Shown here piece after piece: positions 20,225-53,808 of a stretch of DNA of 53,808 nucleotides. Below the pieces are notes generated by a model. It was not told the origin of the DNA. It saw nothing but the letters and a program-made list of their open reading frames with translations, and ran no database searches. This stretch comes from a virus. The translations under genes and the position numbers were made by a program. Every line of letters begins with the position of its first letter. Positions within the stretch are counted from its first letter, which is position 1. The stretch lies in the UHGV virus genome UHGV-0110229; one strand, written 5' to 3'.

Positions 20225-20486
20225 ATTAAAGGAACATCTATTTGCAAAACTGGTTAACGAATTAACGGAAACGGCACACCATTACGCTGGAACACAACAG
20301 CTACGCGGACGGTTGTCTTCAGTTGTCAACCGTTACATTGATGCAGGATGTCACCGCAAAGGTGAAATGACTATGGACAAGGCCATCAAGCGCCGTTCGG
20401 CTGAATGGTCAGTGAGTAACACCGGATTAACCGGATACATTGAAGGCTATAACGACTGTTTACAGGATCATAGCAATGAAAAGTAA
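20214..20486 (+). CDS. Hypothetical protein
   Basis: ATG 20214 within track ORF 20181..20486. Confidence 0.3.
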   Translation: MKPKLKEHLFAKLVNELTETAHHYAGTQQLRGRLSSVVNRYIDAGCHRKGEMTMDKAIKRRSAEWSVSNTGLTGYIEGYNDCLQDHSNEK

Positions 20487-37078: not shown

Positions 37079-37495
37079 TTATCTGAACCTTACTATTTCA
37101 ATTCTGCCGTTGCCCAAGTCAATGATGGCATGATTTTTTATACCCGCGCCGCCTTCGTTAAATATTCTTTCAGCAAATGCGGCTTTATCAGCGTTACACT
37201 CATTGGCTATTCTGTTTCTTATTTCATCGTTGCCTTCGAATACGACGCCTACAGCAGCCTCCTTCACAAGCCCCCAGTTAAACCATCTTGCGTAAACTGG
37301 TTTACCTTCGAAATGCTTATCAATTGCTTCATAAAAAACCTTAATGGCGGCCGGTTCCTTCTTGAAAATTTTATGGTATTCGGCAACGTTGTTTGCTACT
37401 TCATTGCAGTTTATGTTTATTGCTTCGTTTGCATTGGCGTTGAATGCCATACCAACCATTACCGCCATCACCGCCGCTTTGATTAACCGTTTCAT
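37079..37495 (-). CDS. Secreted/periplasmic moron protein (signal peptide), function unknown
   Basis: 138 aa; N-terminal signal peptide MKRLIKAAVMAVMVGMAFNANA; opposite strand to the tail operon. Confidence 0.5.
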   Translation of the reverse strand: MKRLIKAAVMAVMVGMAFNANANEAININCNEVANNVAEYHKIFKKEPAAIKVFYEAIDKHFEGKPVYARWFNWGLVKEAAVGVVFEGNDEIRNRIANECNADKAAFAERIFNEGGAGIKNHAIIDLGNGRIEIVRFR

Positions 37496-37507
37496 AACCC
37501 ACCCCGC

Positions 37508-37594
37508 TTAGTTTTTATTTTTAAGTGCTTTCAGCATTTCTTCTATAAAGTCGGCATAGTGCTCATGCTCGTTGGGTCGGTAGTAGTTTTTCAT
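37508..37594 (-). CDS. Possible small hydrophilic ORF (28 aa) upstream of the secreted moron protein
   Basis: MKNYYRPNEHEHYADFIEEMLKALKNKN with AAGAGGAT RBS; 12 nt upstream of the moron gene. Confidence 0.25.
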   Translation of the reverse strand: MKNYYRPNEHEHYADFIEEMLKALKNKN

Positions 37595-40091: not shown

Positions 40092-40097
40092 ACAAAA

Positions 40098-40125
40098 CCC
40101 CGGTACAATGCCGGGGTTATCTTTT
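40098..40125. terminator. Bidirectional rho-independent terminator
   Basis: CCCCGG-TACAATG-CCGGGG flanked by A-run upstream and TTATCTTTT downstream. Confidence 0.6.
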
Positions 40126-40300
40126 AGTTATTCTCAAAACTTGTATATCCTCTTTCAATTTTCCCTCCGTGTACACTTCTGGCAAATACCGCGTCAGTAT
40201 ACCTGAAAAATGGGCATGTATATGTATCCCCTTTACTATCCATATATTTTAGCACCCACGCCATACGTTTTACGTTGCTTTTATTTGCCGGGTTTTTCAT
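40124..40300 (-). CDS. Moron B gene 4, hypothetical (58 aa)
   Basis: MKNPANKSNVKRMAWVLKYMDSKGDTYTCPFF..; GGAGG RBS. Confidence 0.3.
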   Translation of the reverse strand: MKNPANKSNVKRMAWVLKYMDSKGDTYTCPFFRYTDAVFARSVHGGKIERGYTSFENN

Positions 40301-40318
40301 TTTATTTTCCTCCGCAAA

Positions 40319-40411
40319 TCACAATCTTCCGTTTCTTGCTACATAGCTGCGAGCAAACATCACCTGCCAGATGTTCCAGATCTCCCTCCAGGTGAATTTA
40401 TCGTCATCCAT
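40319..40411 (-). CDS. Moron B gene 3, hypothetical (30 aa)
   Basis: MDDDKFTWREIWNIWQVMFARSYVARNGRL; GAGGTGA RBS. Confidence 0.25.
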   Translation of the reverse strand: MDDDKFTWREIWNIWQVMFARSYVARNGRL

Positions 40412-40419
40412 ATTTCACC

Positions 40420-40674
40420 TCATTTATGTGCCCCTTTTACGCCACAGTGGCGGTTGTATTCCAGATGGTCAATAATTAACCACATCTTTAGATCTTCGCT
40501 GAATAACCGCCAATCGGGGTTGATGTCAAATTTATAACCGTAGCCATCGCGTAATTTTTTGGGGTTGGCCTCTTTTTTCAGGAAAGCATTTAATAAAGCC
40601 TTGCCTTTTTTGATGATCCGTTCCTGGGCGTTTTTCTGTGCTTTCAGGTTTTTGCCAATCATTACCAATTTCAT
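40420..40674 (-). CDS. Moron B gene 2, basic 84 aa protein
   Basis: Lys-rich; 20 nt downstream of gene 1. Confidence 0.4.
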   Translation of the reverse strand: MKLVMIGKNLKAQKNAQERIIKKGKALLNAFLKKEANPKKLRDGYGYKFDINPDWRLFSEDLKMWLIIDHLEYNRHCGVKGAHK

Positions 40675-40694
40675 AACTCACCCCACGCAATCAA

Positions 40695-40850
40695 TCAGTT
40701 GACCACTTTCAGGAAGAAATCACGGTATTCATCTTCTTTTGCATTCATCATAAATTGACCGTATTTGAATGCATCATCAAAACCCTTCACAATCGCAACT
40801 TCCACCTGTTCGAATGCTTTGTTTAGCATTACCACTACATAGCGTTCCAT
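40695..40850 (-). CDS. Moron B gene 1, acidic 51 aa protein
   Basis: MERYVVVMLNKAFEQVEVAIVKGFDDAFKYGQFMMNAKEDEYRDFFLKVVN; GGAGG RBS. Confidence 0.3.
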   Translation of the reverse strand: MERYVVVMLNKAFEQVEVAIVKGFDDAFKYGQFMMNAKEDEYRDFFLKVVN

Positions 40851-40891
40851 ATTGGCCTCCTTTGTTGGTGCTGCTTTCTCTTCTTGATTTC

Positions 40892-40920
40892 TATATACAT
40901 CTTGTCACGTCATGTGTGAA
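40892..40920 (-). promoter_or_regulatory. Sigma70-like promoter for moron B (reverse strand)
   Basis: On the minus strand TTCACA-17 nt-TATATA; a plus-strand TATAAT at 40939-40944 may drive gpM. Confidence 0.4.
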
Positions 40921-41019
40921 GCCGTTTTGTAAACTGGGTATAATTCTTGTGACAAAGTTCTCATTTTTCGCGTAGAAGCGCGTAAAGATGTATGCAATAT
41001 GTAACTTATAGGGGGAATC

Positions 41020-41373: not shown

Positions 41374-41570
41374 TGGAGGTTGTTATGTACGGGACTTGTG
41401 TAGTTGACAAAACTGACGCTTTTACATTGTTTGACGACTATGAGATCAACGACCTTACTGTAAAGGCTGACAATGGCGATACCTGGTATCTTCATGATGT
41501 TGGTGACGGGTATGTGGGATGCAGATCCAGGGAAGGCAAGGAGGTTTTATTTTTGGTTGATGGCGTGTAA
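41373..41570 (+). CDS. Hypothetical small protein between gpM and moron C
   Basis: 65 aa ORF; ATGA overlap with M stop; followed by terminator. Confidence 0.35.
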   Translation: MEVVMYGTCVVDKTDAFTLFDDYEINDLTVKADNGDTWYLHDVGDGYVGCRSREGKEVLFLVDGV

Positions 41571-41576
41571 TAACAA

Positions 41577-41600
41577 CCCCGCTTCTCGCGGGGTTTTCTT
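41577..41600. terminator. Rho-independent terminator (shared by plus ORF and moron C)
   Basis: CCCCGC-TTCTC-GCGGGG followed by TTTTCTT. Confidence 0.6.
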
Positions 41601-41749
41601 GTCAGTAGTTAATGTAAATCAAACTCATTGGGTGAGCGTGCGCCATATTATTGGCTATCGCCGCCCAATCCCAATCAGCAGCGTGAACGCCAAATACTAT
41701 AAGTCCCATTATTATTAGCGCCAAAACTTCTATTTTCATAATCTGTCAC

Positions 41750-41998
41750 CTATAAGTTATCACGCAGATAATTAACGCCCTTATCAGTGACGAATGAATG
41801 GTTAACCTGGTTTTCATCCGTCATGATGATGAATAACTTTTCCTGTAGGTATTTCGCTTTTGGGTACAGTGTTAAACAGACTTGATACAGTATCCCGCGC
41901 TCAATCAGCAAATCAATAAATTCGTGTTCATGATAACCGATGAGGCGGGCGGCCTGTTTCAACGTGTACACATAATCGCCGTGATTGCGCCGCCCCAT
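41750..41998 (-). CDS. Moron C gene 3, 82 aa protein with possible HTH
   Basis: Segment TLKQAARLIGYHEHEFIDLLIERG resembles an HTH. Confidence 0.4.
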   Translation of the reverse strand: MGRRNHGDYVYTLKQAARLIGYHEHEFIDLLIERGILYQVCLTLYPKAKYLQEKLFIIMTDENQVNHSFVTDKGVNYLRDNL

Positions 41999-42007
41999 GT
42001 TGCCGCC

Positions 42008-42358
42008 TTATTTATCGAATGCGCCCAGGTTATCTATGCAGAAATCTTTTGCCGCTTTTTCGTATTCGCGTTTTGCTTGCGGATCGTCTGCCGGGAAACC
42101 TTTTGCGTGTATTTCACCAGGGCAAGACTGATCCATAGAGTCAGCAAGGTTAACATTGACATTGAAATTGACATCTTTCGGGTTCATCTCTTCCACCTTA
42201 TCCGGTACTTGTACTGGAACAACATAATAATAACGAGCATTAGACCAACAGCGCAGTAATTCACGACCTTCATCACACGCTGATTCATATGTATCAAATA
42301 GCCCCATGCGTTCCCATTCGTATTTATCAGTCCACACGTCTAATCTGTATTTTTCCAT
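42008..42358 (-). CDS. Moron C gene 2, 116 aa hypothetical protein
   Basis: ORF with Cys and aromatic residues; no family recognised. Confidence 0.4.
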   Translation of the reverse strand: MEKYRLDVWTDKYEWERMGLFDTYESACDEGRELLRCWSNARYYYVVPVQVPDKVEEMNPKDVNFNVNVNLADSMDQSCPGEIHAKGFPADDPQAKREYEKAAKDFCIDNLGAFDK

Positions 42359-42373
42359 TTTTTGTTATAACCC

Positions 42374-42559
42374 TCATTTGACAGGTTCGATCCTGTACCC
42401 CAAAACGCGTTCGTCTTCAGCGAGTAAGAGCGCGTCGGTAAGTGCCTCGCCTTCATCTTTATACAGGGCCACAGTCATTTTCCTGCCATCCGCAAGGAAC
42501 ACCGTCAACCTCCACACCTTGTCATCCATTTCACACCTCCGCGCCATTTTGTTAACCAT
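42374..42559 (-). CDS. Moron C gene 1, 61 aa hypothetical protein
   Basis: Start at MVNKMARR (ATG 42559..42557) downstream of promoter with AAGGAAG RBS; track ORF extends to 42616. Confidence 0.4.
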   Translation of the reverse strand: MVNKMARRCEMDDKVWRLTVFLADGRKMTVALYKDEGEALTDALLLAEDERVLGYRIEPVK

Positions 42560-43362: not shown

Positions 43363-44096
43363 TTATGGCACTTGAAGATAAAATGATTCGCTATGCAGCG
43401 GCCCACCCTGACGAGGAAGTATGCGGGCTGGTGATAGATAATGATTATTTTTACCCGTGCTTAAACGTGTCTGAAACGCCTCACAACAGCTTTAAAATCT
43501 CGCCTGACGATTATATCAAAGCTGACGAATTAGGCGTTATAACAGCCGTTTTTCACTCCCATACTGACGATTCGTTGGTATTGTCAGCACTGGATCGGCA
43601 GCAACAGGTTATTTCCGGCCTGCCGTGGTATTTGTGTTCCGGTGGCAGGGTAAGAAAATTCCGCCCGGTTGCGCACCTGTTGGGCCGTAAATTTGAGCAC
43701 GGGAAAACGGATTGTTACTCGCTTTTTCGTGACGCCTATCACCTTTGCGGCGTGGATCTACCGGACTTTGAGCGCCACGATGGGTGGTGGCTGCGTGGGG
43801 AAAACCTGTACATAAAAAACCTGCCATTGAACGGGTTTTTCATGGTTGACGCGCAAAGTATTCAGCCTGGTGATGTGATTATTCGCCAGCCGTTTAAGGG
43901 TGCAGATCCATGCCACGCGATGATTTACCTGGGTGACAACACTGTTTTGCATCATGACAATGCCGGACTGTTAAGCCGCCGCGAGCAAATGCGGCCCGCG
44001 TATGTTCGACAGACTAATTCAATATGGAGATCTGACAAATGCTCAAATTTAGATTTACGGGCAATCTTCGAAGATATTACGGCAAGGTGTGTTTAA
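43359..44096 (+). CDS. K: Tail assembly protein K (MPN/JAB + NlpC/P60-like)
   Basis: 245 aa; HSH..D JAB-like motif (AVFHSHTDDS) and Cys/His peptidase-like C-terminal part. Confidence 0.8.
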   Translation: MIMALEDKMIRYAAAHPDEEVCGLVIDNDYFYPCLNVSETPHNSFKISPDDYIKADELGVITAVFHSHTDDSLVLSALDRQQQVISGLPWYLCSGGRVRKFRPVAHLLGRKFEHGKTDCYSLFRDAYHLCGVDLPDFERHDGWWLRGENLYIKNLPLNGFFMVDAQSIQPGDVIIRQPFKGADPCHAMIYLGDNTVLHHDNAGLLSRREQMRPAYVRQTNSIWRSDKCSNLDLRAIFEDITARCV

Positions 44097-44569
44097 ACGT
44101 TGATACGCCAGCGCAAGGACTTAGCATATTGACCGCGCAGGATCAGGAGTTCAAGAAGGCTTTTTTAAATACACCTTTGCGCTTACGAATTGCCGGAAAA
44201 GATTATGACGAAAAGACGGCCCCGGCAGCGGTTAATAGTAAATACCCTGACGGAACTACAGTGATTGTTGCGCCAGTGGTGGAAGGTGGTATTGCTGGGA
44301 TTGGCGTTGTAGGCTGGATTTTAATCGGTGTTTCTGTTGTTAGCGTTGCTTTCTCGATCTTTATGTCACGCAACATGAAGATAAAAACATCAGCAGAAAG
44401 CGCACAAGATAACACCATATCTAACAACACATACACCAGCATTGAGAACAAAGTAGGACAGGGTAGACCAGTGCCAATCCTGTTGGGTGAAATGAAAATA
44501 GGTTCAAATGTCGGGTCGTTAGGCATAGACACAAGCAACAACAGAGACGCCCTTGACGTTGTAAGTTAA
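44039..44569 (+). CDS. I: Tail assembly protein I
   Basis: 176 aa; lambda gpI-like layout with hydrophobic central segment; overlaps the K 3' end. Confidence 0.7.
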   Translation: MLKFRFTGNLRRYYGKVCLNVDTPAQGLSILTAQDQEFKKAFLNTPLRLRIAGKDYDEKTAPAAVNSKYPDGTTVIVAPVVEGGIAGIGVVGWILIGVSVVSVAFSIFMSRNMKIKTSAESAQDNTISNNTYTSIENKVGQGRPVPILLGEMKIGSNVGSLGIDTSNNRDALDVVS

Positions 44570-44582
44570 CAGGAGAAAAACC

Positions 44583-47500
44583 ATGAGTAGCGGCGGCGGC
44601 AAAGCCAAAACACCAACATTATTAAACGATAACCTGTTTCATAAACAGTTTTATCGTGTTTTGGACATTCTCAGCGAAGGCCCAATCTACGGCCCTGTAA
44701 ACCAGAAAGCGCCATTAAACAGCGTAATGCTTAATGACAGCCCAATCACTGACGCCAACGGCGGCACATCGGTCCCTGGCGTTAGCGTGGCGTGGCGTAA
44801 TGGTACGGCTGACCAGTCACCAATCAACGGCTTCAACGCCATTGAATCAACCGTTATTGTTAACGCAAAAGTGACTCACGATACGCCAATAATCAGGACT
44901 GTTTCAGATCCAAACGTTAACCGCGTAAGGCTGAATCTTGGCGTTGATTCTCTGGTTCAGTCAGATGATAAGGGCAATCAATACAATACATCTGTTGTGT
45001 TGATGGTTGATGTTAAGCCATCATCGTCAACAACGTGGTCACTGGTCAAAGATATTACCATTGGCCCTGGTAAACAAAGCGGCGAGTATATGGAAGCGCA
45101 CATCATCCAAGCGCCGGATGAAAAACCGTTTGATATTCGCGTTCGTCGCGTAACGCCAGACAGTAAAAGCGATCTACTTCGCAATGACACCAGGTGGAGC
45201 AGTTACAGCGAGATAATAGACGATAACTTGTCTTATCCCCATACCGCTGTAGCAGGCGCGGTAATTGACCACGATCAGTATACCGACACGCCGACACGCA
45301 CCTATCACATGCGCGGCCTGATTGTTGACGTGCCTGATAACTACGACCCGGAAACACGCACATACTCAGGTTTATGGCTTGGTGGCTTCAAAAAGGCATA
45401 CACCAACAACCCTGCATGGCTTTTCCGGTATCTGGTGAAAAATGAACGCTTCGGGCTTACCCGCCACGCCGGTTACATTGACGTTGATGATGGCGCATTA
45501 TATGTGCTTTCTCAATACTGCGACCAGTTGGTAAACGACGGTTACGGCGGCCTTGAACCACGCATGACGCTTAACGCTTACATCACTGAGCAAATTAGCG
45601 CCCGCGACTTGCTGGACAACATTGCAGGCATGTTCCGTGGTATCGCGTTATGGGACGGGCAGCGCCTTACGGTGATGATTGATGCACCGCAAGATCCAAT
45701 TGCCACCATCACGAATGCAAACGTCGTTGATGGCGCATTTACTCGTTCAAGTATCGCCCGCGCGGAATCTTACAACGCTGTGATTGTGTCATGGACTGAC
45801 CCGGAAAACGGTTGGGAACAATCAAAAGAATACGTAGCAGATGATGAACTGATCGCCCGCGATGGTTACAACGAAACCACTTTGGAGGCTTTTGGTTGCA
45901 CGTCACGCGGGCAGGCGTACCGCGCTGGCAAATGGCTGATAGAAACAGCAAAACGCGAACCCTCAAAATTCACGTTTAAAATGGCCCGTGACGCGATTCA
46001 CTTCACCCCAGGGGATATTATCGAGATACTCGACAATAACCGCGCTGGCGCTCGTTTAGGTGGTCGCATCGTGGCGAATAACGGGAAAGTGATAACCGTA
46101 GACAAGGTTGATTCTGACCTGGTGGCGGCTGGTGACACTATCAGCTTACTGGACAGCGACGGTAAGTTTAAAAAACATCAGATCACTGGGGTTAACGGAA
46201 ACAATATTACCCTTGCGGCAGCGCCCGCATGGATTCGTAACGGAACCGTATTTGCCGTTTCAACTGAATCCGCAAAACCTGTTCTGTGCCGAATTACCAG
46301 CGTAGCGGAAACCGAAAATAACAGCGTGTACACCATTGAGGCTGCACAGCACGATCCTCACAAACAGGCTGTAGTTGATGAAGGCGCAATCTTCGAGGTA
46401 AACAACGACACGCTTAATCACTTCCGCGTGCCGAACATTGAAAATCTGAAGGTGTTAAATGTTGGTTCTGAAACTGTTCAATGTCGCGCAACATGGGAAA
46501 CACAGACGACAACGCATCGCCTGACCTTTGAAATCCGCGTATATAACACCGAAGGCCGCATTGTGGCAACTTATGAAACCACGAATTACCGCTATGATTT
46601 TTATGGCCTCGACGCTGGCAGCTACACGCTTGGTATTCGCGGGCGTAATGACACTGGCATGAAGGGTGCGGAAAGTATTGTAGACCTGGTTATTGGTGCG
46701 CCAGCGGCCCCGATTGGAGTCAATTGGGTTCCAGGTGTCTTCCAGGCAACGGTATATCCGATCAGCAAAACAACCCTTACCACTGATACGGCATATGATT
46801 TCTACTACTCAGGTGAAAATCAGATCACAGATCCATCAAAAGTAACCACGCTGGCGCAATTCACCGGGCGCGGCTACCAATGGACTTTTGGCGGTATGAA
46901 TACGGGACACACTTATTACGTCTATGTGCGCACGCGTAATGCCTTTGGTGTGTCAGACTTCGTTGAGGCATCAGGTAAACCGACTGAAAACTTCGACGAA
47001 ATCAGCGACTACGTGATGAAGGATGTCATGGAGTCAGAACAATTCAAGGACATGATTGGCGACATTAAAGATCTTGGCGACCGTGCCGACCTTATCGAAA
47101 GCGCTACAAATGACCTTAAAAACGCTACTGACAACCTCAAAACTGCAACTGACACCCTGACAAACGTCACTGACGAATTGAGGACTGATACTGACAACCT
47201 GACAAACATCACTGAGGATTTAAGGACTGACACTGACAGCTTAATCACAGAAACAGGAGTCATAAAAGCTGACACGGACACACTGAAAAAAGAAACGGAA
47301 GATCTCTACAAAAAAGTTAAAGAGAACGCCGATGATATTGGTCAGCATGAGTCCAGAATCGACTTATTAGAAGTGTCAAGCGAAAAAGTTGACAGCGAAC
47401 TGGCGCAGGCAAAAGCAAGCCTGCAAAACGCTTCATTGGCGCTTATCAACAACTCGCTTGCACAGACAAACACGCGCGTAACCCTTACCGCCCAGTATAA

Positions 47501-50024
47501 GAAAGGCATGACGGAAACGAAAGCGGAAATTGACCGTATTGACAACGTTATCGCTGAAGAGAAAAAAGCGACAGCGGAATCACTGGAAACCATCACGGCA
47601 GAAATGAACACGATGGATTCCAACCTTAAAGGTCAGATTTCCAGCGTGGAACGTGCAGTGGCTGACGAGGCCAGCGCACGCGCCGAAGCTATTAACGGTG
47701 TGAACGCCTCAATAGACAATCTCGACAAGAAAACTGACGCCAGCGTTAAACGTCTGGACCAGGCAATCGCCGATGAATCGAGCGCGCGCACCCAGGCTGT
47801 CAGCGACGTTAACGCAAGCATTTCAGCACTTGACAAGAAAACTGACGCCAGCGTTAAACGCCTTGATCAAGCTATTGCAGACGAAACAAGCGCACGCGCC
47901 GAAGCTATCAATGGGGTAAATGCCTCAGTATCAGCACTTGATAAGAAAACCGATTCAAGCATAAGCCGCCTTGATAAAGCTATTGCCGACGAAACGAGCG
48001 CGAGAACCGAAGCCATCAATGGTGTGAAGGCATCAATCTCCACACTTGACGGCAAGGTAACAAGTAACGTTAATCGCCTTGATAAAGCTATTACAGACGA
48101 AACTAAGGCACGCACTGACGCTATCAGCAGCGTTAATGCAAGCATCAGCACGCTTGAAAGCAACACTGAATCAGAGGTGAACAGACTCGACCAGGCCATC
48201 GCTGACGAGGCCAGCGCACGCGCACAGGCCATCAGTGGCGTGAAGGCATCGATAGACACCCTTGATAAGAAAACAGACGCCAGCGTTTCCCGTCTTGATA
48301 AAGCGATAGCAGACGAAACTCAGGCAAGAAGCGCCGCAATAACAGATGTTAAGGCTGATTTGACAACGCTCGAAAACAGCACAAACGCCAGCGTCAAACG
48401 CCTTGACCAGGCGATTGCTGACGAATCAAGTGCCCGCGCTGAAGCAATATCAGGCATTAACGCAGAGATCGGCAGCATCGAAAACAACGTTGACAAAAAC
48501 AGCGATGATATAAATCAGACCAAAGCAAGCCTGCAAAACGCTTCATTGGCGCTTATCAACAACTCGCTTGCACAGACAAACACGCGCGTAACCCTTACCG
48601 CCCAGTATAAGAAAGGTCGCAAGGAAACAAACGCGCAGATTGATCGTATTGACAGTGTTATCGCTGAAGAGAAAAAGGCTACAGCCGAAGCAATTGGCGT
48701 GGTAAAAGCATCGATCACCGATCTTGACAAGAAAACAGACGCCAGCGTTTCCCGCCTTGACAGAGCGATTGCAGACGAAACAAGCGCACGCAGCGAGGCT
48801 ATCAGCGGCGTGAACGCATCAATTTCCACCATTGATAGTAATGTGAAAAGCAATATTACCAGGATGGATAAGGCTATCGCCGACGAAACAAAAGCACGCG
48901 CAGACGCAATAAGCGGCCTTAATGCATCGCTTACCAGTACGATCACCTCGAAAGTATCTGAGGTATCAACGGCACTGGCTACGCATGAGGAATCAAGCGC
49001 TGAAAAATTCAGCCAGATCTCAGCGTCATTCGAACTAGTAGACGCAAGTATCACTGAATGGTCGCAGGCGATGGCTACGGCTGACGAGGCGTTATCAACG
49101 AAAATCGATCAGCTAACAGTGACCGTTAACGGGAATAAGACGGCAATAGAAACGACATCTAAAGCATTGACCGACTTCAAGGGCAATGTTGATGCGTCGT
49201 ACTCTATCAAGCTGGCGACCGACAACAACGGAATGAAATACGCAACAGGTATGTCGCTTGGCCTCACTGGTGACGGCACTAACTTTCAGTCGCAGTGTAT
49301 TTTCCTTGTTGACCGTTTCGTGTTAATGACCGCAGCAAACGGCACATATACAACGCCTTTCTATGTCACCAATGGCGCAATGTATGTAAGAGAAGCGTTT
49401 ATTAAGGACGGAACTATCAACTCCGCCAAAATAGCTGATCGAATACAGTCAGTTAATTACAGCTGGGAAAACGGTACAGGATGGGCGATAGATAAAGCCG
49501 GTGACGCAGTATTTAACCAGGTAACCGTAAGGGGTACGGTATACGCTTATGCTGGTGTGTTTAACGGTACTGTTTACGCAACTGGCGGTAAATTTACTGG
49601 AGCAGTTGAAGCTACAAGTTTTGTTGGTGACGTGGCAAGTATGTCAGTGATAAACGAGGATGTATTTCCGTCAATGAGGGGAAATGGCAGCAGGCGCGTT
49701 TCGAAAACTTATCTTGATTCAAGTTCATCAAGTTTATCAAAAACAGTTTACGTTATGATTCCGTATGATTTGTCATACCATACATATAGTGAATCTTCTC
49801 GCATCAATGTAACTATAAATATAAGCGGACACACAAAAACAATTAATATAGAAAGGCCAGCATCAGGCCAAGCAATGTCATCTGTCGCGGTGCACTGTGT
49901 ATCTGGCCTCACATACCCAACAATTACAGTCGAGGTGACGGAAAACTTTACCAATACATCTAATGCAGCAATAAGAAAACCAGGTTTAATACTTATAACA
50001 AGAAGTTCAGGAACATGGATATAA
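44583..50024 (+). CDS. J: Tail tip central fiber / host specificity protein J, extended with coiled-coil repeat region and distinct C-terminal domain
   Basis: 1813 aa; N-terminal part lambda J-like; then about ten 36-aa tandem repeats and a separate C-terminal domain. Confidence 0.85.
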   Translation: MSSGGGKAKTPTLLNDNLFHKQFYRVLDILSEGPIYGPVNQKAPLNSVMLNDSPITDANGGTSVPGVSVAWRNGTADQSPINGFNAIESTVIVNAKVTHDTPIIRTVSDPNVNRVRLNLGVDSLVQSDDKGNQYNTSVVLMVDVKPSSSTTWSLVKDITIGPGKQSGEYMEAHIIQAPDEKPFDIRVRRVTPDSKSDLLRNDTRWSSYSEIIDDNLSYPHTAVAGAVIDHDQYTDTPTRTYHMRGLIVDVPDNYDPETRTYSGLWLGGFKKAYTNNPAWLFRYLVKNERFGLTRHAGYIDVDDGALYVLSQYCDQLVNDGYGGLEPRMTLNAYITEQISARDLLDNIAGMFRGIALWDGQRLTVMIDAPQDPIATITNANVVDGAFTRSSIARAESYNAVIVSWTDPENGWEQSKEYVADDELIARDGYNETTLEAFGCTSRGQAYRAGKWLIETAKREPSKFTFKMARDAIHFTPGDIIEILDNNRAGARLGGRIVANNGKVITVDKVDSDLVAAGDTISLLDSDGKFKKHQITGVNGNNITLAAAPAWIRNGTVFAVSTESAKPVLCRITSVAETENNSVYTIEAAQHDPHKQAVVDEGAIFEVNNDTLNHFRVPNIENLKVLNVGSETVQCRATWETQTTTHRLTFEIRVYNTEGRIVATYETTNYRYDFYGLDAGSYTLGIRGRNDTGMKGAESIVDLVIGAPAAPIGVNWVPGVFQATVYPISKTTLTTDTAYDFYYSGENQITDPSKVTTLAQFTGRGYQWTFGGMNTGHTYYVYVRTRNAFGVSDFVEASGKPTENFDEISDYVMKDVMESEQFKDMIGDIKDLGDRADLIESATNDLKNATDNLKTATDTLTNVTDELRTDTDNLTNITEDLRTDTDSLITETGVIKADTDTLKKETEDLYKKVKENADDIGQHESRIDLLEVSSEKVDSELAQAKASLQNASLALINNSLAQTNTRVTLTAQYKKGMTETKAEIDRIDNVIAEEKKATAESLETITAEMNTMDSNLKGQISSVERAVADEASARAEAINGVNASIDNLDKKTDASVKRLDQAIADESSARTQAVSDVNASISALDKKTDASVKRLDQAIADETSARAEAINGVNASVSALDKKTDSSISRLDKAIADETSARTEAINGVKASISTLDGKVTSNVNRLDKAITDETKARTDAISSVNASISTLESNTESEVNRLDQAIADEASARAQAISGVKASIDTLDKKTDASVSRLDKAIADETQARSAAITDVKADLTTLENSTNASVKRLDQAIADESSARAEAISGINAEIGSIENNVDKNSDDINQTKASLQNASLALINNSLAQTNTRVTLTAQYKKGRKETNAQIDRIDSVIAEEKKATAEAIGVVKASITDLDKKTDASVSRLDRAIADETSARSEAISGVNASISTIDSNVKSNITRMDKAIADETKARADAISGLNASLTSTITSKVSEVSTALATHEESSAEKFSQISASFELVDASITEWSQAMATADEALSTKIDQLTVTVNGNKTAIETTSKALTDFKGNVDASYSIKLATDNNGMKYATGMSLGLTGDGTNFQSQCIFLVDRFVLMTAANGTYTTPFYVTNGAMYVREAFIKDGTINSAKIADRIQSVNYSWENGTGWAIDKAGDAVFNQVTVRGTVYAYAGVFNGTVYATGGKFTGAVEATSFVGDVASMSVINEDVFPSMRGNGSRRVSKTYLDSSSSSLSKTVYVMIPYDLSYHTYSESSRINVTINISGHTKTINIERPASGQAMSSVAVHCVSGLTYPTITVEVTENFTNTSNAAIRKPGLILITRSSGTWI
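47690..48940 (+). repeat. In-frame tandem 108-bp (36-aa) coding repeats within J, plus a 95-bp perfect direct repeat
   Basis: Repeat unit VNASIxxLDKKTDASVxRLDxAIADExSARxEAIxG about 10 times; identical 95-bp segment at 47412-47506 and 48522-48616. Confidence 0.8.
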
Positions 50025-50031
50025 AAAACAA

Positions 50032-50056
50032 CCCCGCTTCGCGCGGGGTTTTCTTT
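50032..50056. terminator. Bidirectional rho-independent terminator after J and the lipoprotein gene
   Basis: CCCCGC-TTCGC-GCGGGG with A-run upstream and TTTTCTTTT downstream. Confidence 0.65.
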
Positions 50057-50304
50057 TAGTAGTTAGCTACACAGTTAGAAGGGCTACCGATGCGGCGCAT
50101 GTTGTGATCGAGTTCGTGACACCATTGACCAGTATATGGCAGTTTTTCAGTGTCATAGACTAGATGCCCGCCACCATCATAAACAACATCTTGCGGAATT
50201 ACTCCACTATTCGGCAGGTTATGCAATGCAGCCTCTTTGTCAACAGAGCAACCAGTAAGAGCAACAGCCGCAGCGAACAAAACCACTTTGAACACGTTTT
50301 TCAT
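50056..50304 (-). CDS. Small lipoprotein moron (candidate Cor/Llp-type superinfection exclusion protein)
   Basis: 82 aa; signal peptide with lipobox LTGC; opposite strand between J and stf. Confidence 0.5.
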   Translation of the reverse strand: MKNVFKVVLFAAAVALTGCSVDKEAALHNLPNSGVIPQDVVYDGGGHLVYDTEKLPYTGQWCHELDHNMRRIGSPSNCVANY

Positions 50305-50481
50305 TTTTGAACCCTCATTCTTGTTTGTTAATCCGGTTCACCCGGTGACTTAAATATCCGGCAAAACCACATTTCGTATATTGACACAGATCAACAAATA
50401 CATTTTGTGTAAGCAGAAAATGCAACACAGATCACAAAATGGTAGAATTATTCCGTTAATTAACAAAATGGAGTCATCGAG

Positions 50482-53400
50482 ATGATTTACACAACTGGAA
50501 CAATTGCCATCAGCGGCAATACTGTTACAGGCACGGGCACAAACTTTTCCGCGCCGCTTTCTCTTATTCGTGTAGGTTGCACGCTCATTGCTGTTGGCAA
50601 CCCTGTACAGATCTTTACCATCACGGAAATCAAAAGTGGTACTGAACTGTCAGTGACGCCAGCGGCTAACCCCGCCATCCCTGCCGGGACAAAATTTAGC
50701 ATCCTGCTATCTGACTCGATCTCAGTTGATGGGCTTGCTCAGGACGTGGCTGAAACCCTGCGTTACTACCAGAGCAAAGAAACAGAAATCGCCTCCGCTG
50801 TAGAGTGGTGGGAAGATTTCGGCGGCGAAGGTCAGTTGGATCAGCTTCTTACCAACATTCGCGCAGAAACAGCACAATCAACCGCCAACGCTCAAAAAAC
50901 AGAAACTGACAAAAACGCAGCAGAAGCGTCAAAAACAGCGGCTGCAAAATCTGCCACAGCAGCGAAAACATCAGAAACTAACGCTAAGGCAAGCGAGACG
51001 GCAGCGAAAACAAGCGAAACCAACGCCAAAACATCAGAGAACAGGGCGCAAGAATATCTGAATCAGATAATAAGGTCTAACAACGCATTGGTACAATGCA
51101 ATTGGCCTGTTACAACTGAAGCCTTTGCCCGTTATGTGAAGATCGCTAAACTAACCGATCCGGGTGCAGTAAGCTGCCATTTAACACTAATGATCGCCAA
51201 TGGCGGTAACTACGGTACAAGTTACGGGAATATTGACTTTGTAGAGATCTCCGCTCGCGGTCTTAGCGATGTGGAAAGCATAACCAGTGAAAATATAACT
51301 AAATTTTTAAGTGTTCGCCGCCTCGGATCGCCTAACCTTGCTAATGACAACCAAATGCGTTACGGCCTGGTTAAAGGTGACGGCTATATCGAGGTCTGGT
51401 GCTACCAGCGAGCTTTTATTAAAGAAACAAAGGTTGCGATACTGGCACAGACTGGCAGAACTGAATTATACATTCCTGAAGGGTATGTCGTTCAGGAAGC
51501 CGAACCCGCTGGATATGTTGAAAGCCCAGCAGCAAGGATTTACGATCAGGTAAACAAACCAAGCAAGGCAGACTTAGGCCTTTCTAATGCTATGCTTATA
51601 GGCGCTTTTGGTCTTGGCGGCAGCGGTCCGTCATCAAACGGCATGATGAGCAATACAGAGCTATTAAAAGCACTGCGTGCAAAAGGTAGTCATTTCTGGC
51701 GTGCTGATAAGCCTGACGGAAGCACAGCGACACATTACGCCCACGGTTCTGGTATATTCTCTCGGTGCGGTGATACATGGTCGGCGATCAACATAGAATA
51801 CGAAAATGCCAGAGTTAAGATTTTCGCTGGCAATGATAACAAACTTGAAACTGCAACTTATGCCGTAAATGAGCTATACGGAACCAAAAATAAGCCGTCG
51901 AAATCTGACGTTGGACTTGGCAACGTAACTAATGATGCGCAGGTGAAAAAATCCGGCGATATTATGTCTGGCGACCTGGCGGTCTATAAAGATACTCCGT
52001 CACTATTCCTTAGGGCAAAAGATGGAGCAGGTGCTGCCGCTGTGCGGTTTTTCACTGATCAAAACCTGGAGCGCGGCATAATCTATGCTATTCAAAACAC
52101 TGATACGCTTGGAGAAGTTCGCATTAGGGCTAAAAACGCAAAAGGTGAAACAAACGGTGATCTTGTTGTTCGCCACAACGGGGTGGTTGAGGTTCAGAAT
52201 CTCACAGCGGCTAAAAAAGTAAAAAGCGTAAACGCAGAGCTTGCAAACACATCAACTAACACGCTTGAGAACACGTTAAAAATCAGCGGTCAACAGCATA
52301 CTCCATTACTTTTAACGCGTACCGGTTATACTGAAAACCTATCCATTGGCTTTAAGGTTGACAACCTTGATCAAAAATATCTCGGAATCAATGGCAGTGG
52401 AGATCTAGCTTTTGGTAAAAATGCTGATCATAAACAAAACAGCAGAGTGATTACGCAAGCAATACTGGATAGCGGGGTGACGGTAGGCGGCAAAACAACA
52501 TTTTCTGACCTTGCCACATTTAACGCAGGTATGGCTGGAGCAATTGAGCCTGAAAGCATTTCTGAAGTGGCTGTTGATCTTAATAATCTGACCATAAAAG
52601 GCACAGATAAAGGTTCAGTTAAATACTATCACTGCAGAACTGCCGGAGGCGGTGCAAATATTACCAATAAGCCTGCTGGCATAGGTGGTAACTTTTTGCT
52701 TCGTGTAGAGTCAATTCGTAAGATCACGGATTCAGATTATACAAACTTGCAAACCCTTGTTGGCACAGACACAAAACAAATATACGTTCGCTATTGTGAA
52801 AATGGCAATTGGTCTGCATGGAGTCAGATTGTTGTTTCAGGAAGAAATCAGGATGTAACCGTCAGGTCGTTAACCTCGACGACTCCATCAAAATTAGGTG
52901 GCGGGCGTATTGATGTGCTTGGGAGTACGTCAGATTATAACAGCATGAATTGTACCGTGCGCGGTGTTGATAGCAGCGGAACTAATTCTGCGTGGTCAGT
53001 AGGCACATCAGTAGACACTGGCAAAATGTTGTTCCTGAAAAACCACAGAAGCAGCGCTCAAGTGCTGTTAAATGGCGATGACGGCGCGGTTCAACTACTA
53101 AGCGGTACTGTCAACGGTGCTACAGCACAGGCGCTAACCATCAACAAAGATGAGGTTAACTCAACTGCTGATTTAGTAATTAGAAAACAAACAGGGACTG
53201 GCAATCGTTTTGTTTTACAGAACGCAGGTAATGCAGAACTACCGTTTTCTGTCAGTGTGTGGGGTTCCAGTACTCGACAAAACGTTTTTGAGGTTGCCAC
53301 GTCTGCTGCGTATCTGTTTTATGCGCAAAAAACGTCAGCAGGCCAGTTGTTTGATGTAAATGGCGCTATTAATTGCACAACGCTGAATCAGTCATCAGAC

Positions 53401-53808
53401 CGCGACCTTAAAGACGATATTCTCGTTATCAGCGACGCGACGAAAGCAATCCGTAAAATGAACGGATACACCTACACGCTCAGGGAAAACGGGATGCCTT
53501 ATGCTGGCGTTATTGCACAGGAAGTAATGGAGGCGCTACCGGAAGCCGTAGGATCGTTTACTCGTTACGGTGAAGAATTGCAGGGTCCGACCATTGATGG
53601 CAACGAGCTACGCGAAGAAACGCGTTACCTCAATGTTGATTATGCGGCGGTGACTGGTTTACTTGTCCAGGTGGCACGCGAAACGGATAACCGCGTCACC
53701 AAACTGGAAGAGGAAAACGCCAGCCTGAAAGCTAACATTGCCGCAATGGATGAGCGTATCGCAAAACTTGAAGCGCTTGTCAGTCAGTTGACCGGAAGCG
53801 AAGAATAA
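50482..53808 (+). CDS. stf: Side tail fiber protein with C-terminal intramolecular chaperone (peptidase S74-like) domain
   Basis: 1108 aa; lambda Stf-like N-terminal region with KTSETNA repeats; C-terminal SDRDLKDDI Ser-Lys motif and coiled-coil end; stop at the last base of the window. Confidence 0.75.
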   Translation: MIYTTGTIAISGNTVTGTGTNFSAPLSLIRVGCTLIAVGNPVQIFTITEIKSGTELSVTPAANPAIPAGTKFSILLSDSISVDGLAQDVAETLRYYQSKETEIASAVEWWEDFGGEGQLDQLLTNIRAETAQSTANAQKTETDKNAAEASKTAAAKSATAAKTSETNAKASETAAKTSETNAKTSENRAQEYLNQIIRSNNALVQCNWPVTTEAFARYVKIAKLTDPGAVSCHLTLMIANGGNYGTSYGNIDFVEISARGLSDVESITSENITKFLSVRRLGSPNLANDNQMRYGLVKGDGYIEVWCYQRAFIKETKVAILAQTGRTELYIPEGYVVQEAEPAGYVESPAARIYDQVNKPSKADLGLSNAMLIGAFGLGGSGPSSNGMMSNTELLKALRAKGSHFWRADKPDGSTATHYAHGSGIFSRCGDTWSAINIEYENARVKIFAGNDNKLETATYAVNELYGTKNKPSKSDVGLGNVTNDAQVKKSGDIMSGDLAVYKDTPSLFLRAKDGAGAAAVRFFTDQNLERGIIYAIQNTDTLGEVRIRAKNAKGETNGDLVVRHNGVVEVQNLTAAKKVKSVNAELANTSTNTLENTLKISGQQHTPLLLTRTGYTENLSIGFKVDNLDQKYLGINGSGDLAFGKNADHKQNSRVITQAILDSGVTVGGKTTFSDLATFNAGMAGAIEPESISEVAVDLNNLTIKGTDKGSVKYYHCRTAGGGANITNKPAGIGGNFLLRVESIRKITDSDYTNLQTLVGTDTKQIYVRYCENGNWSAWSQIVVSGRNQDVTVRSLTSTTPSKLGGGRIDVLGSTSDYNSMNCTVRGVDSSGTNSAWSVGTSVDTGKMLFLKNHRSSAQVLLNGDDGAVQLLSGTVNGATAQALTINKDEVNSTADLVIRKQTGTGNRFVLQNAGNAELPFSVSVWGSSTRQNVFEVATSAAYLFYAQKTSAGQLFDVNGAINCTTLNQSSDRDLKDDILVISDATKAIRKMNGYTYTLRENGMPYAGVIAQEVMEALPEAVGSFTRYGEELQGPTIDGNELREETRYLNVDYAAVTGLLVQVARETDNRVTKLEEENASLKANIAAMDERIAKLEALVSQLTGSEE

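What the first reader, a model, noticed from the sequence alone, without database searches (positions are those of the whole stretch)
50025..50481. Lipoprotein moron between J and stf, candidate receptor-blocking exclusion protein
An 82 aa lipoprotein (lipobox LTGC) on the opposite strand sits exactly where lambdoid and T5-like phages carry Cor/Llp/Lom-type genes that inactivate the phage's own outer-membrane receptor. It is flanked by a bidirectional terminator and an upstream region that shares GTTAATCCGG, CACATTTCGTAT and ACAAAATG motifs with the upstream region of the secreted moron at 37079-37495, suggesting both envelope morons are co-regulated.
Basis: partly seen in the sequence, partly recalled or inferred. 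Interest (0 to 1): 0.6.

Follow-up and report, generated by a model that had tools for sequence, protein, structure and literature searches.

The report
Known LamB-directed phage exclusion lipoprotein

Summary
The ORF at 50056-50304 (minus strand, 82 aa, lipobox LTG|C19) is real. So are the bidirectional terminator at 50030-50050 and the shared upstream words. The window is a phage of the mEpimmI group (mEp021/mEp010 relatives). Its lipoprotein is a "type-C Lpp", differing at two residues (A20S, S45G) from Lpp010. In Negrete-Mendez et al. 2025 (PMC11893012), plasmid-expressed Lpp010 excluded the LamB-dependent phages mEp010, mEp044, mEp554 and lambda. The family is narrow, has no Pfam model, and shows no detectable homology to Cor, T5 Llp, Rtp45 or Lom. 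It always sits just after J on the opposite strand, including in all four LamB-dependent BASEL Seuratvirus phages. The lipoprotein stays 92-97% identical between mEpimmI phages whose J tips are only 23-57% identical. That fits a protein aimed at the receptor, not at a particular phage tip. Binding to the periplasmic face of LamB is an inference by analogy (Llp-FhuA, Rtp45-LptDE), not shown. The co-regulation claim is weak. GTTAATCCGG is not conserved in relatives. CACATTTCGTAT and ACAAAATG belong to a window-wide motif also found at early promoters and at other junctions in the tail operon. Verdict: ordinary, already known; low interest.

The parts
49512..50024 (+). 3' end of J (last 170 aa): the variable receptor-binding tip. 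It is 94% identical to prophage NRZ96606, 54% to MagusPhagus, 41% to the LamB-dependent Seuratvirus WildeMaa and to HH3, and only 25% to mEp010.
   Evidence: LamB dependence of Bas21-24 from BASEL S5 table (PMC8594841)
50027..50055 (.). Bidirectional intrinsic terminator (stem 50030-50050) that ends both J and the lipoprotein gene. It is also the left recombination junction with mEp010-type phages. A near-identical copy (28/29) lies at 41572-41600.
   Evidence: ARNold terminators annotated at the same place in mEp010 and mEp013
50056..50304 (-). Lipoprotein gene, 82 aa, a type-C Lpp. Signal peptide 50251-50304, lipidated Cys19 at 50248-50250, mature 64 aa at 50059-50250, with Ser at +2 and conserved Cys62 and Cys78.
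   Evidence: PMC11893012 section 3.7
50305..50397 (-). Upstream region specific to the type-C cassette: 5' UTR and presumed promoter of the lipoprotein gene. It holds GAGGG (50312-50316), GTTAATCCGG (50327-50336) and CACATTTCGTAT (50368-50379). No convincing sigma-70 promoter was identified.
50398..50481 (+). Leader and promoter-like region of stf, nearly invariant across type-A, type-C and cor cassettes. It carries an extended -10-like TGGTAGAAT (50440-50448) and motif copies at 50399-50409, 50434-50441 and 50463-50470. It is the right boundary of the swappable cassette.
50482..53808 (+). Side (lateral) tail fibre gene, with a C-terminal S74 intramolecular chaperone domain.

Best explanation
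The gene encodes a superinfection-exclusion lipoprotein of the mEpimmI type-C Lpp family (the Lpp010 family). The proposed pathway has five steps. (1) The 18-residue signal peptide directs Sec export. Cys19 is lipidated and the peptide is cut by signal peptidase II. Because residue +2 is Ser rather than Asp, Lol places the 64-residue mature protein in the inner leaflet of the outer membrane. This step is inferred from sequence rules. (2) Cys62 and Cys78, conserved across the family, probably form a disulfide (inferred). (3) The protein makes the cell refractory to phages that use the maltoporin LamB. This was shown for the 80/82-identical Lpp010 against mEp010, mEp044, mEp554 and lambda. (4) It most likely does so by binding LamB from the periplasmic side and making the porin unusable for irreversible binding or DNA ejection. 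This is inferred by analogy with T5 Llp on FhuA and Rtp45 on LptDE. (5) The gene is a self-contained unit on the opposite strand, with its own upstream region and a bidirectional terminator, so it can be expressed independently of the late operon, from the prophage and/or late in infection. Expression was not shown here. The gene belongs to a swappable host-recognition cassette: J tip, terminator, exclusion lipoprotein.
For: Identity: the protein is 80/82 identical to mEp010 gp116 (Lpp010); the differences are A20S and S45G. It matches PHROG 12984 'lipoprotein' at E 1.6e-26. Experiment on the homologue: plasmid-expressed Lpp010 excluded mEp010, mEp044, mEp554 and lambda, and those mEp phages fail on a lamB knockout (PMC11893012). 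Receptor link outside the group: homologues with mature proteins 61-64% identical lie in the same place (J stop, terminator, minus-strand ORF, lateral fibre) in 44 phage records. These include all four BASEL Seuratvirus phages whose terminal receptor is LamB (Bas21-24). Coupling to the receptor rather than to the tip: the mature lipoprotein is 92-97% identical among mEpimmI phages whose J tips are 23-57% identical. mEp010 and mEp013 tips are about 70% identical to the HK97 tip (HK97 uses LamB, PMC6832061). The window's tip is of the Seuratvirus type, 41% identical. Lambda, with an unrelated tip, is also excluded. Lipoprotein features: Cys19 is invariant in the 22 aligned sequences, Cys62 and Cys78 are invariant in those 22 and nearly invariant when two more distant sequences are added, and no member has Asp at +2. 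Cassette nature: otherwise closely related prophages carry a type-A lipoprotein plus DUF6453, or a true cor, in the same slot. Terminator. Precedent for periplasmic-face blocking: PMC12685063.
Against: Nobody has tested this exact allele. One of its two substitutions is at the +2 sorting position (Ala to Ser; both are predicted to give outer-membrane sorting). Lpp010 did not exclude the LamB-dependent mEp013, so exclusion depends on the incoming phage and is not a simple loss of LamB. No adsorption, binding or localisation data exist for the family. The window phage's own receptor is inferred only from 41-50% identity of its J end to LamB-dependent phages. AlphaFold2 models were of low confidence (pLDDT 55 and 51), so there is no structural support. 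No convincing sigma-70 promoter for the gene was found in 50305-50481.
Confidence: 0.8

Rival explanations
1. The lipoprotein does exclude phages, but after adsorption. It would block DNA passage through the periplasm or inner membrane (as with P22 SieA or T4 Imm/Sp) without touching LamB.
For: The published assay is a spot test and does not separate adsorption from injection. mEp013 uses LamB yet escapes.
Against: Lambda and HK97 share LamB but differ in how dicBF, which inhibits inner-membrane receptor proteins, affects them. From my own knowledge, lambda uses ManYZ and HK97 uses PtsG at the inner membrane, so LamB is the obvious shared component. The family co-occurs with LamB-type J tips in three unrelated phage groups. 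The predicted sorting is to the outer membrane, since no member has Asp at +2. Known lipoproteins in this slot act on the receptor.
Confidence: 0.15
2. In this particular phage the lipoprotein is mismatched with the tail tip. The phage would use a receptor other than LamB, and the gene would protect the lysogen only against other, LamB-dependent phages, not against its own kind.
For: The window's J tip is only 25% identical to mEp010's and 41% to the nearest tips with an experimentally known receptor. The junction with mEp010-type DNA falls exactly at the J stop and terminator, so the tip and the lipoprotein have been recombined apart.
Against: Among the phage records inspected, the family lies immediately after a J tip of either the Seuratvirus type or the HK97 type, and both types are tied to LamB. 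Prophage NRZ96606 carries the same tip and lipoprotein pairing (94% and 95% identical). MagusPhagus pairs a related tip (54%) with the same lipoprotein (94%). Both pairings argue that the combination is maintained.
Confidence: 0.15
3. The main role is in lytic growth, as proposed for T5 Llp. By masking LamB on lysing cells and debris, the protein would stop progeny virions being wasted. Prophage-encoded immunity would be secondary.
For: The same gene is kept by strictly virulent Seuratvirus and Dhillonvirus phages, where each copy has a recognisable sigma-70-like promoter. This role is stated for superinfection-exclusion factors in PMC12685063.
Against: It does not exclude the best explanation; only the timing of expression differs. 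No expression data exist for either state.
Confidence: 0.3
4. The upstream words mark a regulator shared by the two envelope morons, so the two are co-regulated.
For: The shared 12-mer and 10-mer occur in the same order and are rare in shuffles (P about 0.001-0.005). Both loci carry inverted pairs of ACAAAATG. The ACAAAATG-type sites inspected at the stf and tape-measure junctions are invariant in the aligned relatives.
Against: GTTAATCCGG is not conserved at the lipoprotein locus in relatives. CACATTTCGTAT varies at the tape-measure locus. The ACAAAATG family has 18 exact copies against 5 expected, and they occur in many regulatory regions: 8966, 9772, 10239, 17199/17264, 22299 and 42545/42637. 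Degenerate copies are also readable at 40880-40940. At the lipoprotein locus most copies lie in the 84 nt that stay invariant upstream of stf whichever cassette is present.
Confidence: 0.2

Closest known systems
Lpp010 (gp116 of Escherichia phage mEp010), the type-C Lpp exclusion lipoprotein of mEpimmI phages (Negrete-Mendez et al. 2025, PMC11893012)
   Same: 80/82 residues are identical. Length, lipobox, position between J and the tail fibre gene on the opposite strand, terminator and upstream region are the same (about 92% DNA identity over 50021-50787). The phage group is the same.
   Different: It carries A20S (the +2 residue of the mature protein) and S45G. It is paired with a J tip of a different class, 25% identical to mEp010's.
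Unnamed lipoprotein ORFs after J in LamB-dependent Seuratvirus (Bas21-24, CAjan, Seurat), Nonagvirus 9g and Dhillonvirus-like phages (HH3, EP23, PNS1)
   Same: They are homologous: the mature protein is 61-64% identical, with the invariant motifs PNSGV.P, DTEKLP.TGQWC and RIGSPSNC. The layout J / terminator / minus-strand ORF / lateral fibre is the same, and the J tip is related at 41%.
   Different: Those phages are virulent and unrelated in the rest of the genome. Their intergenic regions are shorter and have clearer sigma-70 promoters. Their lipoproteins have not been tested.
Cor (phi80, N15, T1, HK022; FhuA-directed exclusion lipoprotein)
   Same: It is a small lipoprotein of similar size in the same slot. 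A mEpimmI-type prophage in E. coli UMNK88 carries a true cor exactly there. The functional logic is the same.
   Different: There is no sequence relationship beyond the signal peptide: PHROG 1119 E 0.28 over residues 1-22, hhalign probability 10%. The receptor differs.
[quoted passage not shown]
   Same: Both are small periplasm-facing outer-membrane lipoproteins encoded next to the receptor-binding function. Both are proposed to alter the receptor so that the phage tip cannot bind (PMC12685063). They serve as the mechanistic model used here.
   Different: A profile of the family found no similar PDB chain at E up to 10. The target here would be a trimeric diffusion porin, not a TonB-dependent transporter or LptDE. 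No structure or binding data exist.
Lambda Lom
   Same: It occupies the same genomic slot between J and stf in lambda and is a prophage-expressed moron.
   Different: From my own knowledge, Lom is a roughly 200-aa outer-membrane beta-barrel of the Ail/Lom family. It lies on the same strand as J, is not a lipoprotein and is not an exclusion protein. The window protein matches no Pfam family.

Membership tests
mEpimmI type-C Lpp (Lpp010 family; PHROG 12984) | Sequence similarity to Lpp010 over the full length | tested here: met
   80/82 identical to mEp010 gp116; tblastn 97.6%; PHROG 12984 E 1.6e-26.
mEpimmI type-C Lpp (Lpp010 family; PHROG 12984) | Lipobox [LVI][ASTVI][GAS]C after a signal peptide | tested here: met
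   MKNVFKVVLFAAAVA-LTG-C19; this Cys is invariant in 22 family members.
mEpimmI type-C Lpp (Lpp010 family; PHROG 12984) | Located in the structural cluster between J and the tail fibre gene, on the opposite strand | tested here: met
mEpimmI type-C Lpp (Lpp010 family; PHROG 12984) | Expression excludes LamB-dependent phages | not testable with these tools
   Shown only for Lpp010 (PMC11893012).
mEpimmI type-C Lpp (Lpp010 family; PHROG 12984) | The carrier phage itself uses LamB | tested here: inconclusive
   Over the last 115 aa the J tip is 41% identical to LamB-dependent Bas23 and to HH3, and only 25% to mEp010. BLASTP gives about 28% to the HK97 tip.
Cor exclusion lipoproteins | Sequence similarity of the mature protein to Cor | tested here: not met
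   PHROG 1119 matches residues 1-22 only, E 0.28. There is no NCBIfam or Pfam hit. hhalign against UMNK88 Cor gives probability 10%, signal peptide only.
T5 Llp / Rtp45-type receptor-masking lipoproteins | Sequence or fold similarity to the solved proteins | tested here: not met
   A profile search of all PDB chains at E up to 10 returned only three unrelated weak hits. Fold could not be compared because the models had pLDDT 55 and 51.
T5 Llp / Rtp45-type receptor-masking lipoproteins | Binds the periplasmic side of the phage's outer-membrane receptor and prevents tip binding | not testable with these tools
   Inference only. Sequence features (lipobox, non-Asp +2) are compatible.
Moron (independent transcription unit inserted in a late operon) | Own terminator, own promoter, and presence or absence varying among close relatives | tested here: inconclusive
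   The terminator is met. Variable cassette content among relatives is met. No promoter was convincingly identified.
Lambda Lom / Ail family | Ail/Lom outer-membrane beta-barrel domain | tested here: not met
   No Pfam family at E up to 1 apart from a signal-peptide-level hit; the protein is only 82 aa.

The most novel reading that the evidence does not exclude
Two things remain open. First, this family may be the first exclusion lipoprotein that disables a general trimeric porin (LamB) from the periplasmic side, independently of the incoming phage's tip class. Its targeting of the receptor rather than the tip would explain why one near-identical lipoprotein serves J tips only 23-26% identical. 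Second, the 12-bp motif ATACAAAATGTR, which recurs as inverted pairs at the early promoters and at junctions between minus-strand inserts and late genes, may be the operator of a phage regulator that coordinates these inserts or restarts late transcription after their terminators.
Probability: 0.3. Interest if true: 0.5.

Novelty: already known. Interest (0 to 1): 0.2.

Why it matters
For annotation, RefSeq and GenBank call this gene 'hypothetical protein'. It can be named a LamB-associated superinfection-exclusion lipoprotein, and its presence predicts LamB as the receptor of the carrier phage. For biology, the mechanism by which a 64-residue lipoprotein disables a diffusion porin is unsolved, and so is the reason mEp013 escapes. 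The conservation pattern found here (lipoprotein conserved, J tip free to vary and recombine at the terminator) supports a receptor-side mechanism and gives a defined pair for structural work. None of this changes the basic picture published in 2025.

Tried and rejected
Several searches gave nothing for the lipoprotein.
- Pfam, NCBIfam and PADLOC returned no usable hit.
- A PDB profile search at E up to 10 gave only unrelated weak hits.
- An exhaustive HMM search of 1.84 billion representatives found only three real clusters and no remote relatives.
- Rfam on the whole window gave no family.

Structure prediction also failed. Two AlphaFold2 runs, on the full-length and the mature protein with 22-23 sequences, gave pLDDT 55 and 51. 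I therefore did not run fold searches, whose results would have been meaningless.

Promoter hunting for the lipoprotein gene was inconclusive. The only scanner hit overlaps the start codon. My own scan gave only weak candidates: TTGTTA-16-TACCAT and ATGACT-19-AATAAT inside the invariant stf leader.

The small ORFs annotated by PHANOTATE between the lipoprotein and stf genes in mEp010, mEp013 and MagusPhagus correspond here to 37-38-aa GTG/TTG ORFs with no support. I regard them as spurious.

I considered whether the ACAAAATG motif is the operator of the CI-like repressor. A repeat search of the immunity region did not show the usual operator triplets and did not settle the question.

Cor or type-A Lpp homology was rejected by hhalign.

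Full report
**Observation**

- Its N-terminus, MKNVFKVVLFAAAVA-LTG-C19, is a textbook lipoprotein signal peptide. A GAGGG ribosome-binding site lies 7 nt upstream of the ATG.
- It lies between the stop of a 1813-aa J-like tail tip gene (44583-50024) and the start of a 1108-aa side tail fibre gene (50482-53808). The fibre carries a C-terminal S74 chaperone domain.
- The hairpin at 50030-50050 is flanked by T-runs on both strands. It folds well in both directions: -15.4 kcal/mol (z -3.3) and -19.7 kcal/mol (z -5.1).
- The words shared with the region upstream of 37079-37495 are all real. In 2000 shuffles of the two regions, a shared 12-mer arose in 0.45% and two shared words of at least 10 nt in 0.1%.

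**What the window is**

DNA searches place the window in the mEpimmI group of temperate coliphages: mEp021, mEp010, mEp013, mEp044, mEp515, mEp554 and MagusPhagus. This group was described by Negrete-Mendez et al. 2025 (PMC11893012).
- That paper searched these genomes for lipobox genes and found four lipoprotein sequence types in the structural cluster.
- It cloned two of them. Type A (Lpp021) excluded the OmpA-dependent mEp021 and mEp515.
- Type C (Lpp010, gp116 of mEp010) excluded the LamB-dependent mEp010, mEp044 and mEp554 and, unexpectedly, lambda. It did not exclude the LamB-dependent mEp013.

**Identity of the gene**

The window protein differs from Lpp010 at two residues out of 82: A20S, the +2 residue of the mature lipoprotein, and S45G. 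It is therefore a type-C Lpp.
- It matches PHROG 12984 'lipoprotein' (E 1.6e-26). It has no Pfam, NCBIfam or PADLOC family.
- The Cor PHROG matches only the signal peptide (E 0.28).
- hhalign against a true Cor and against the type-A Lpp aligns only the signal peptide (probability 10% and 16%).
- A family profile finds no related PDB chain at E up to 10, so neither Llp nor Rtp45 is retrieved.
- An exhaustive profile search of 1.84 billion representative proteins finds only three genuine clusters. The family is narrow.
- It occurs in 44 phage records and in 13 of 5426 complete E. coli genomes, where it is annotated 'hypothetical protein'.

**Anatomy of the family**

The alignment of 22 members shows these features.
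- The lipidated Cys is invariant, and the +2 residue is never Asp.
- The motifs PNSGV.P, DTEKLP.TGQWC and RIGSPSNC are essentially invariant.
- Two further cysteines (62 and 78) are invariant in those 22 sequences and nearly invariant when two more distant ones are added. They are probably a disulfide pair.
- Variation is concentrated at residues 38-46.

From the established Lol sorting rule (Asp at +2 retains a lipoprotein in the inner membrane), the mature 64-residue protein should sit in the inner leaflet of the outer membrane, facing the periplasm. This is inference. AlphaFold2 gave only low-confidence models (pLDDT 55 and 51), so I made no fold comparison.

**Link to LamB**

Outside the mEpimmI group, homologues with 61-64% identical mature proteins lie in the same layout: J stop, terminator hairpin, minus-strand ORF, lateral tail fibre gene. 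They occur in Seuratvirus, Nonagvirus 9g, Dhillonvirus-like phages and phages of Salmonella, Cronobacter and Enterobacter.
- All four BASEL Seuratvirus isolates that carry the gene (GottfriedDienst, KurtStettler, WildeMaa, SeppeHuegi; Bas21-24) have LamB as their experimentally determined terminal receptor (S5 table of PMC8594841).
- The J tips attached to the family fall into two distantly related classes. mEp010 and mEp013 have a tip about 70% identical to that of HK97, which adsorbs to LamB (PMC6832061).
- The window, prophage NRZ96606 and MagusPhagus have a tip of the Seuratvirus class. The window's tip is 94%, 54% and 41% identical to those of NRZ96606, MagusPhagus and WildeMaa, and only 25% identical to that of mEp010.

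In every pair compared, the lipoprotein is more conserved than the tip. Lipoproteins 97% identical are attached to tips 23-26% identical. DNA similarity to mEp010 begins exactly at the J stop and terminator, at about 50021. Together with the exclusion of lambda, whose tip is unrelated, this argues that the lipoprotein is matched to the receptor and not to a particular phage tip.

**Mechanism**

What is shown, for the near-identical homologue only, is exclusion of LamB-dependent phages on plasmid expression. The rest is inferred.
- The protein is exported, lipidated and sorted to the outer membrane.
- It contacts LamB from the periplasmic side and makes the porin unusable for irreversible binding or DNA ejection.
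- This is how T5 Llp acts on FhuA and Rtp45 on LptDE, by conformational changes in extracellular loops (PMC12685063).

The escape of mEp013 shows that the block depends on the incoming tip. That fits a conformational change in LamB that some tips tolerate. It is also compatible with a block after adsorption, which I keep as the main rival (0.15). A second rival is that this phage's own tip uses another receptor, so the lipoprotein would protect only against foreign LamB phages (0.15). [quoted passage not shown]

**The slot is a swappable cassette**

The closest E. coli prophage over 44000-53808 is in strain WCHEC025970 (97% identity over the 90% that aligns). In place of this cassette it has a different J end, a DUF6453 gene and a type-A lipoprotein, like mEp021. 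The UMNK88 prophage has two extra plus-strand genes and a true cor in the same slot.

In an alignment of eight such loci, the 84 nt upstream of the stf start (50398-50481) are nearly invariant whatever the cassette. Sequence to the left of that is cassette-specific. The cassette therefore runs from the J tip to about 50397.

**The co-regulation claim**

- GTTAATCCGG is conserved at the tape-measure locus. At the lipoprotein locus, the four closest relatives read GTTCATCCGG, GCTCATCCGG or GCTCGTCCGG. It also occurs in coding sequence at 20422. I treat the exact match as fortuitous.
- CACATTTCGTAT is conserved at the lipoprotein locus but varies at the tape-measure locus (CACACTTT-TAC, CACATTTTGTAT). 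It is a one-mismatch variant of a motif, ATACAAAATGTR (reverse complement YACATTTTGTAT), that recurs across the window.
- That motif is strongly over-represented. Exact ACAAAATG occurs 18 times against 4.95 +/- 2.3 expected. TACAAAATGTA with at most one mismatch occurs 10 times against 1.7 expected.
- By my reading, 13 of the 18 exact copies lie in intergenic regions, often as inverted pairs. They include sites next to the -35 boxes of the early promoters (8966, 9772) and sites upstream of the tape measure gene, gene L and stf.

The words are therefore part of something real. It is not specific to the two 'envelope morons', however, and at this locus most copies belong to the invariant stf leader. 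What binds the motif, or whether it acts as an RNA hairpin, is unresolved. I could not identify a convincing promoter for the lipoprotein gene. The virulent-phage homologues have clearer promoters.

**Comparison with known systems and verdict**

This is a member of the Lpp010 (type-C) family, by near-identity and by every sequence and context feature I could test. It works like Cor, Llp and Rtp45 but is not homologous to them, and it has nothing in common with Lom beyond the genomic slot.

The mechanism at LamB, the mEp013 escape, the receptor of this particular phage and the meaning of the recurrent motif remain open. Interest is low (0.2).

Noticed in passing
window 8966, 9772, 10239, 17199/17264, 22299, 37676/37702, 42545/42637, 50401/50434/50463: A recurrent motif, ACAAAATG (12-mer ATACAAAATGTR), has 18 exact copies against about 5 expected. 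Copies are mostly intergenic and often form inverted pairs. They sit next to the -35 boxes of the early promoters and upstream of the late genes that follow minus-strand inserts. The copies inspected at the stf and tape-measure junctions are invariant in the aligned relatives. It is a candidate operator or RNA hairpin; the binding partner is unknown.
   Followed up: partly
window 41572-41600 and 50027-50055: The bidirectional terminator after J is duplicated (28/29 identical) after the small plus-strand gene that ends at 41570. A third terminator with the same AACCCCG...CGGGGTT stem lies at 40096-40118 after the tape measure gene. Each marks the junction between a late gene and a minus-strand insert.
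   Followed up: partly
window 37079-37594, 40124-40850, 41602-42529, 50056-50304 (all minus strand): The tail operon is interrupted four times by minus-strand gene clusters. Each has a bidirectional terminator at one end and a conserved intergenic region before the next late gene. mEp021 has the same arrangement, with different content in some slots, including a 'putative antirepressor'.
   Followed up: partly
window 37079-37495 (minus strand): This is a 138-aa protein with a cleavable Sec-type signal peptide (MKRLIKAAVMAVMVGMAFNANA|NE). It matches no family in Pfam, PHROGs, NCBIfam or PADLOC. It is conserved in mEp010, mEp021 and MagusPhagus. Its function is unknown.
   Followed up: partly
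window 37519-37594 (minus strand): An unannotated 25-codon ORF (MKNYYRPNEHEHYADFIEEMLKALKNKN) lies just upstream of the 138-aa gene. Against MagusPhagus it shows an in-frame 3-nt indel and substitutions that are scattered rather than clustered. That suggests a real small gene.
   Followed up: partly
window 41602-41739 (minus strand): A 45-aa ORF with a hydrophobic N-terminus (MKIEVLALIIMGLIVFGVHA...) lies immediately after the duplicated terminator. It may be a small membrane or secreted peptide. I did not examine it further.
   Followed up: no
window 50398-50481: The 84 nt upstream of stf are nearly invariant across phages carrying type-A, type-C or cor cassettes. They are at least as conserved as the flanking coding sequence. 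They contain an extended -10-like TGGTAGAAT, with a back-to-back AATAAT on the other strand, so divergent promoters are possible.
   Followed up: partly
window 47000-49000 (within J): The J gene contains a long array of imperfect repeats of about 35 aa (…LDKKTDASVKRLDQAIADE.SAR.EAI.GVNASI…). Their length varies between relatives, whose J proteins range from about 1680 to 1935 aa. This matches the 'repeats of different length' noted in PMC11893012.
   Followed up: no
L007 (E. coli WCHEC025970), L008 (UMNK88), L004 (mEp021): Near-identical prophages carry different exclusion cassettes in the J-stf slot: DUF6453 plus type-A lipoprotein (OmpA group), or two plus-strand genes plus cor. This locus may therefore predict the receptor across the mEpimmI group.
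   Followed up: partly
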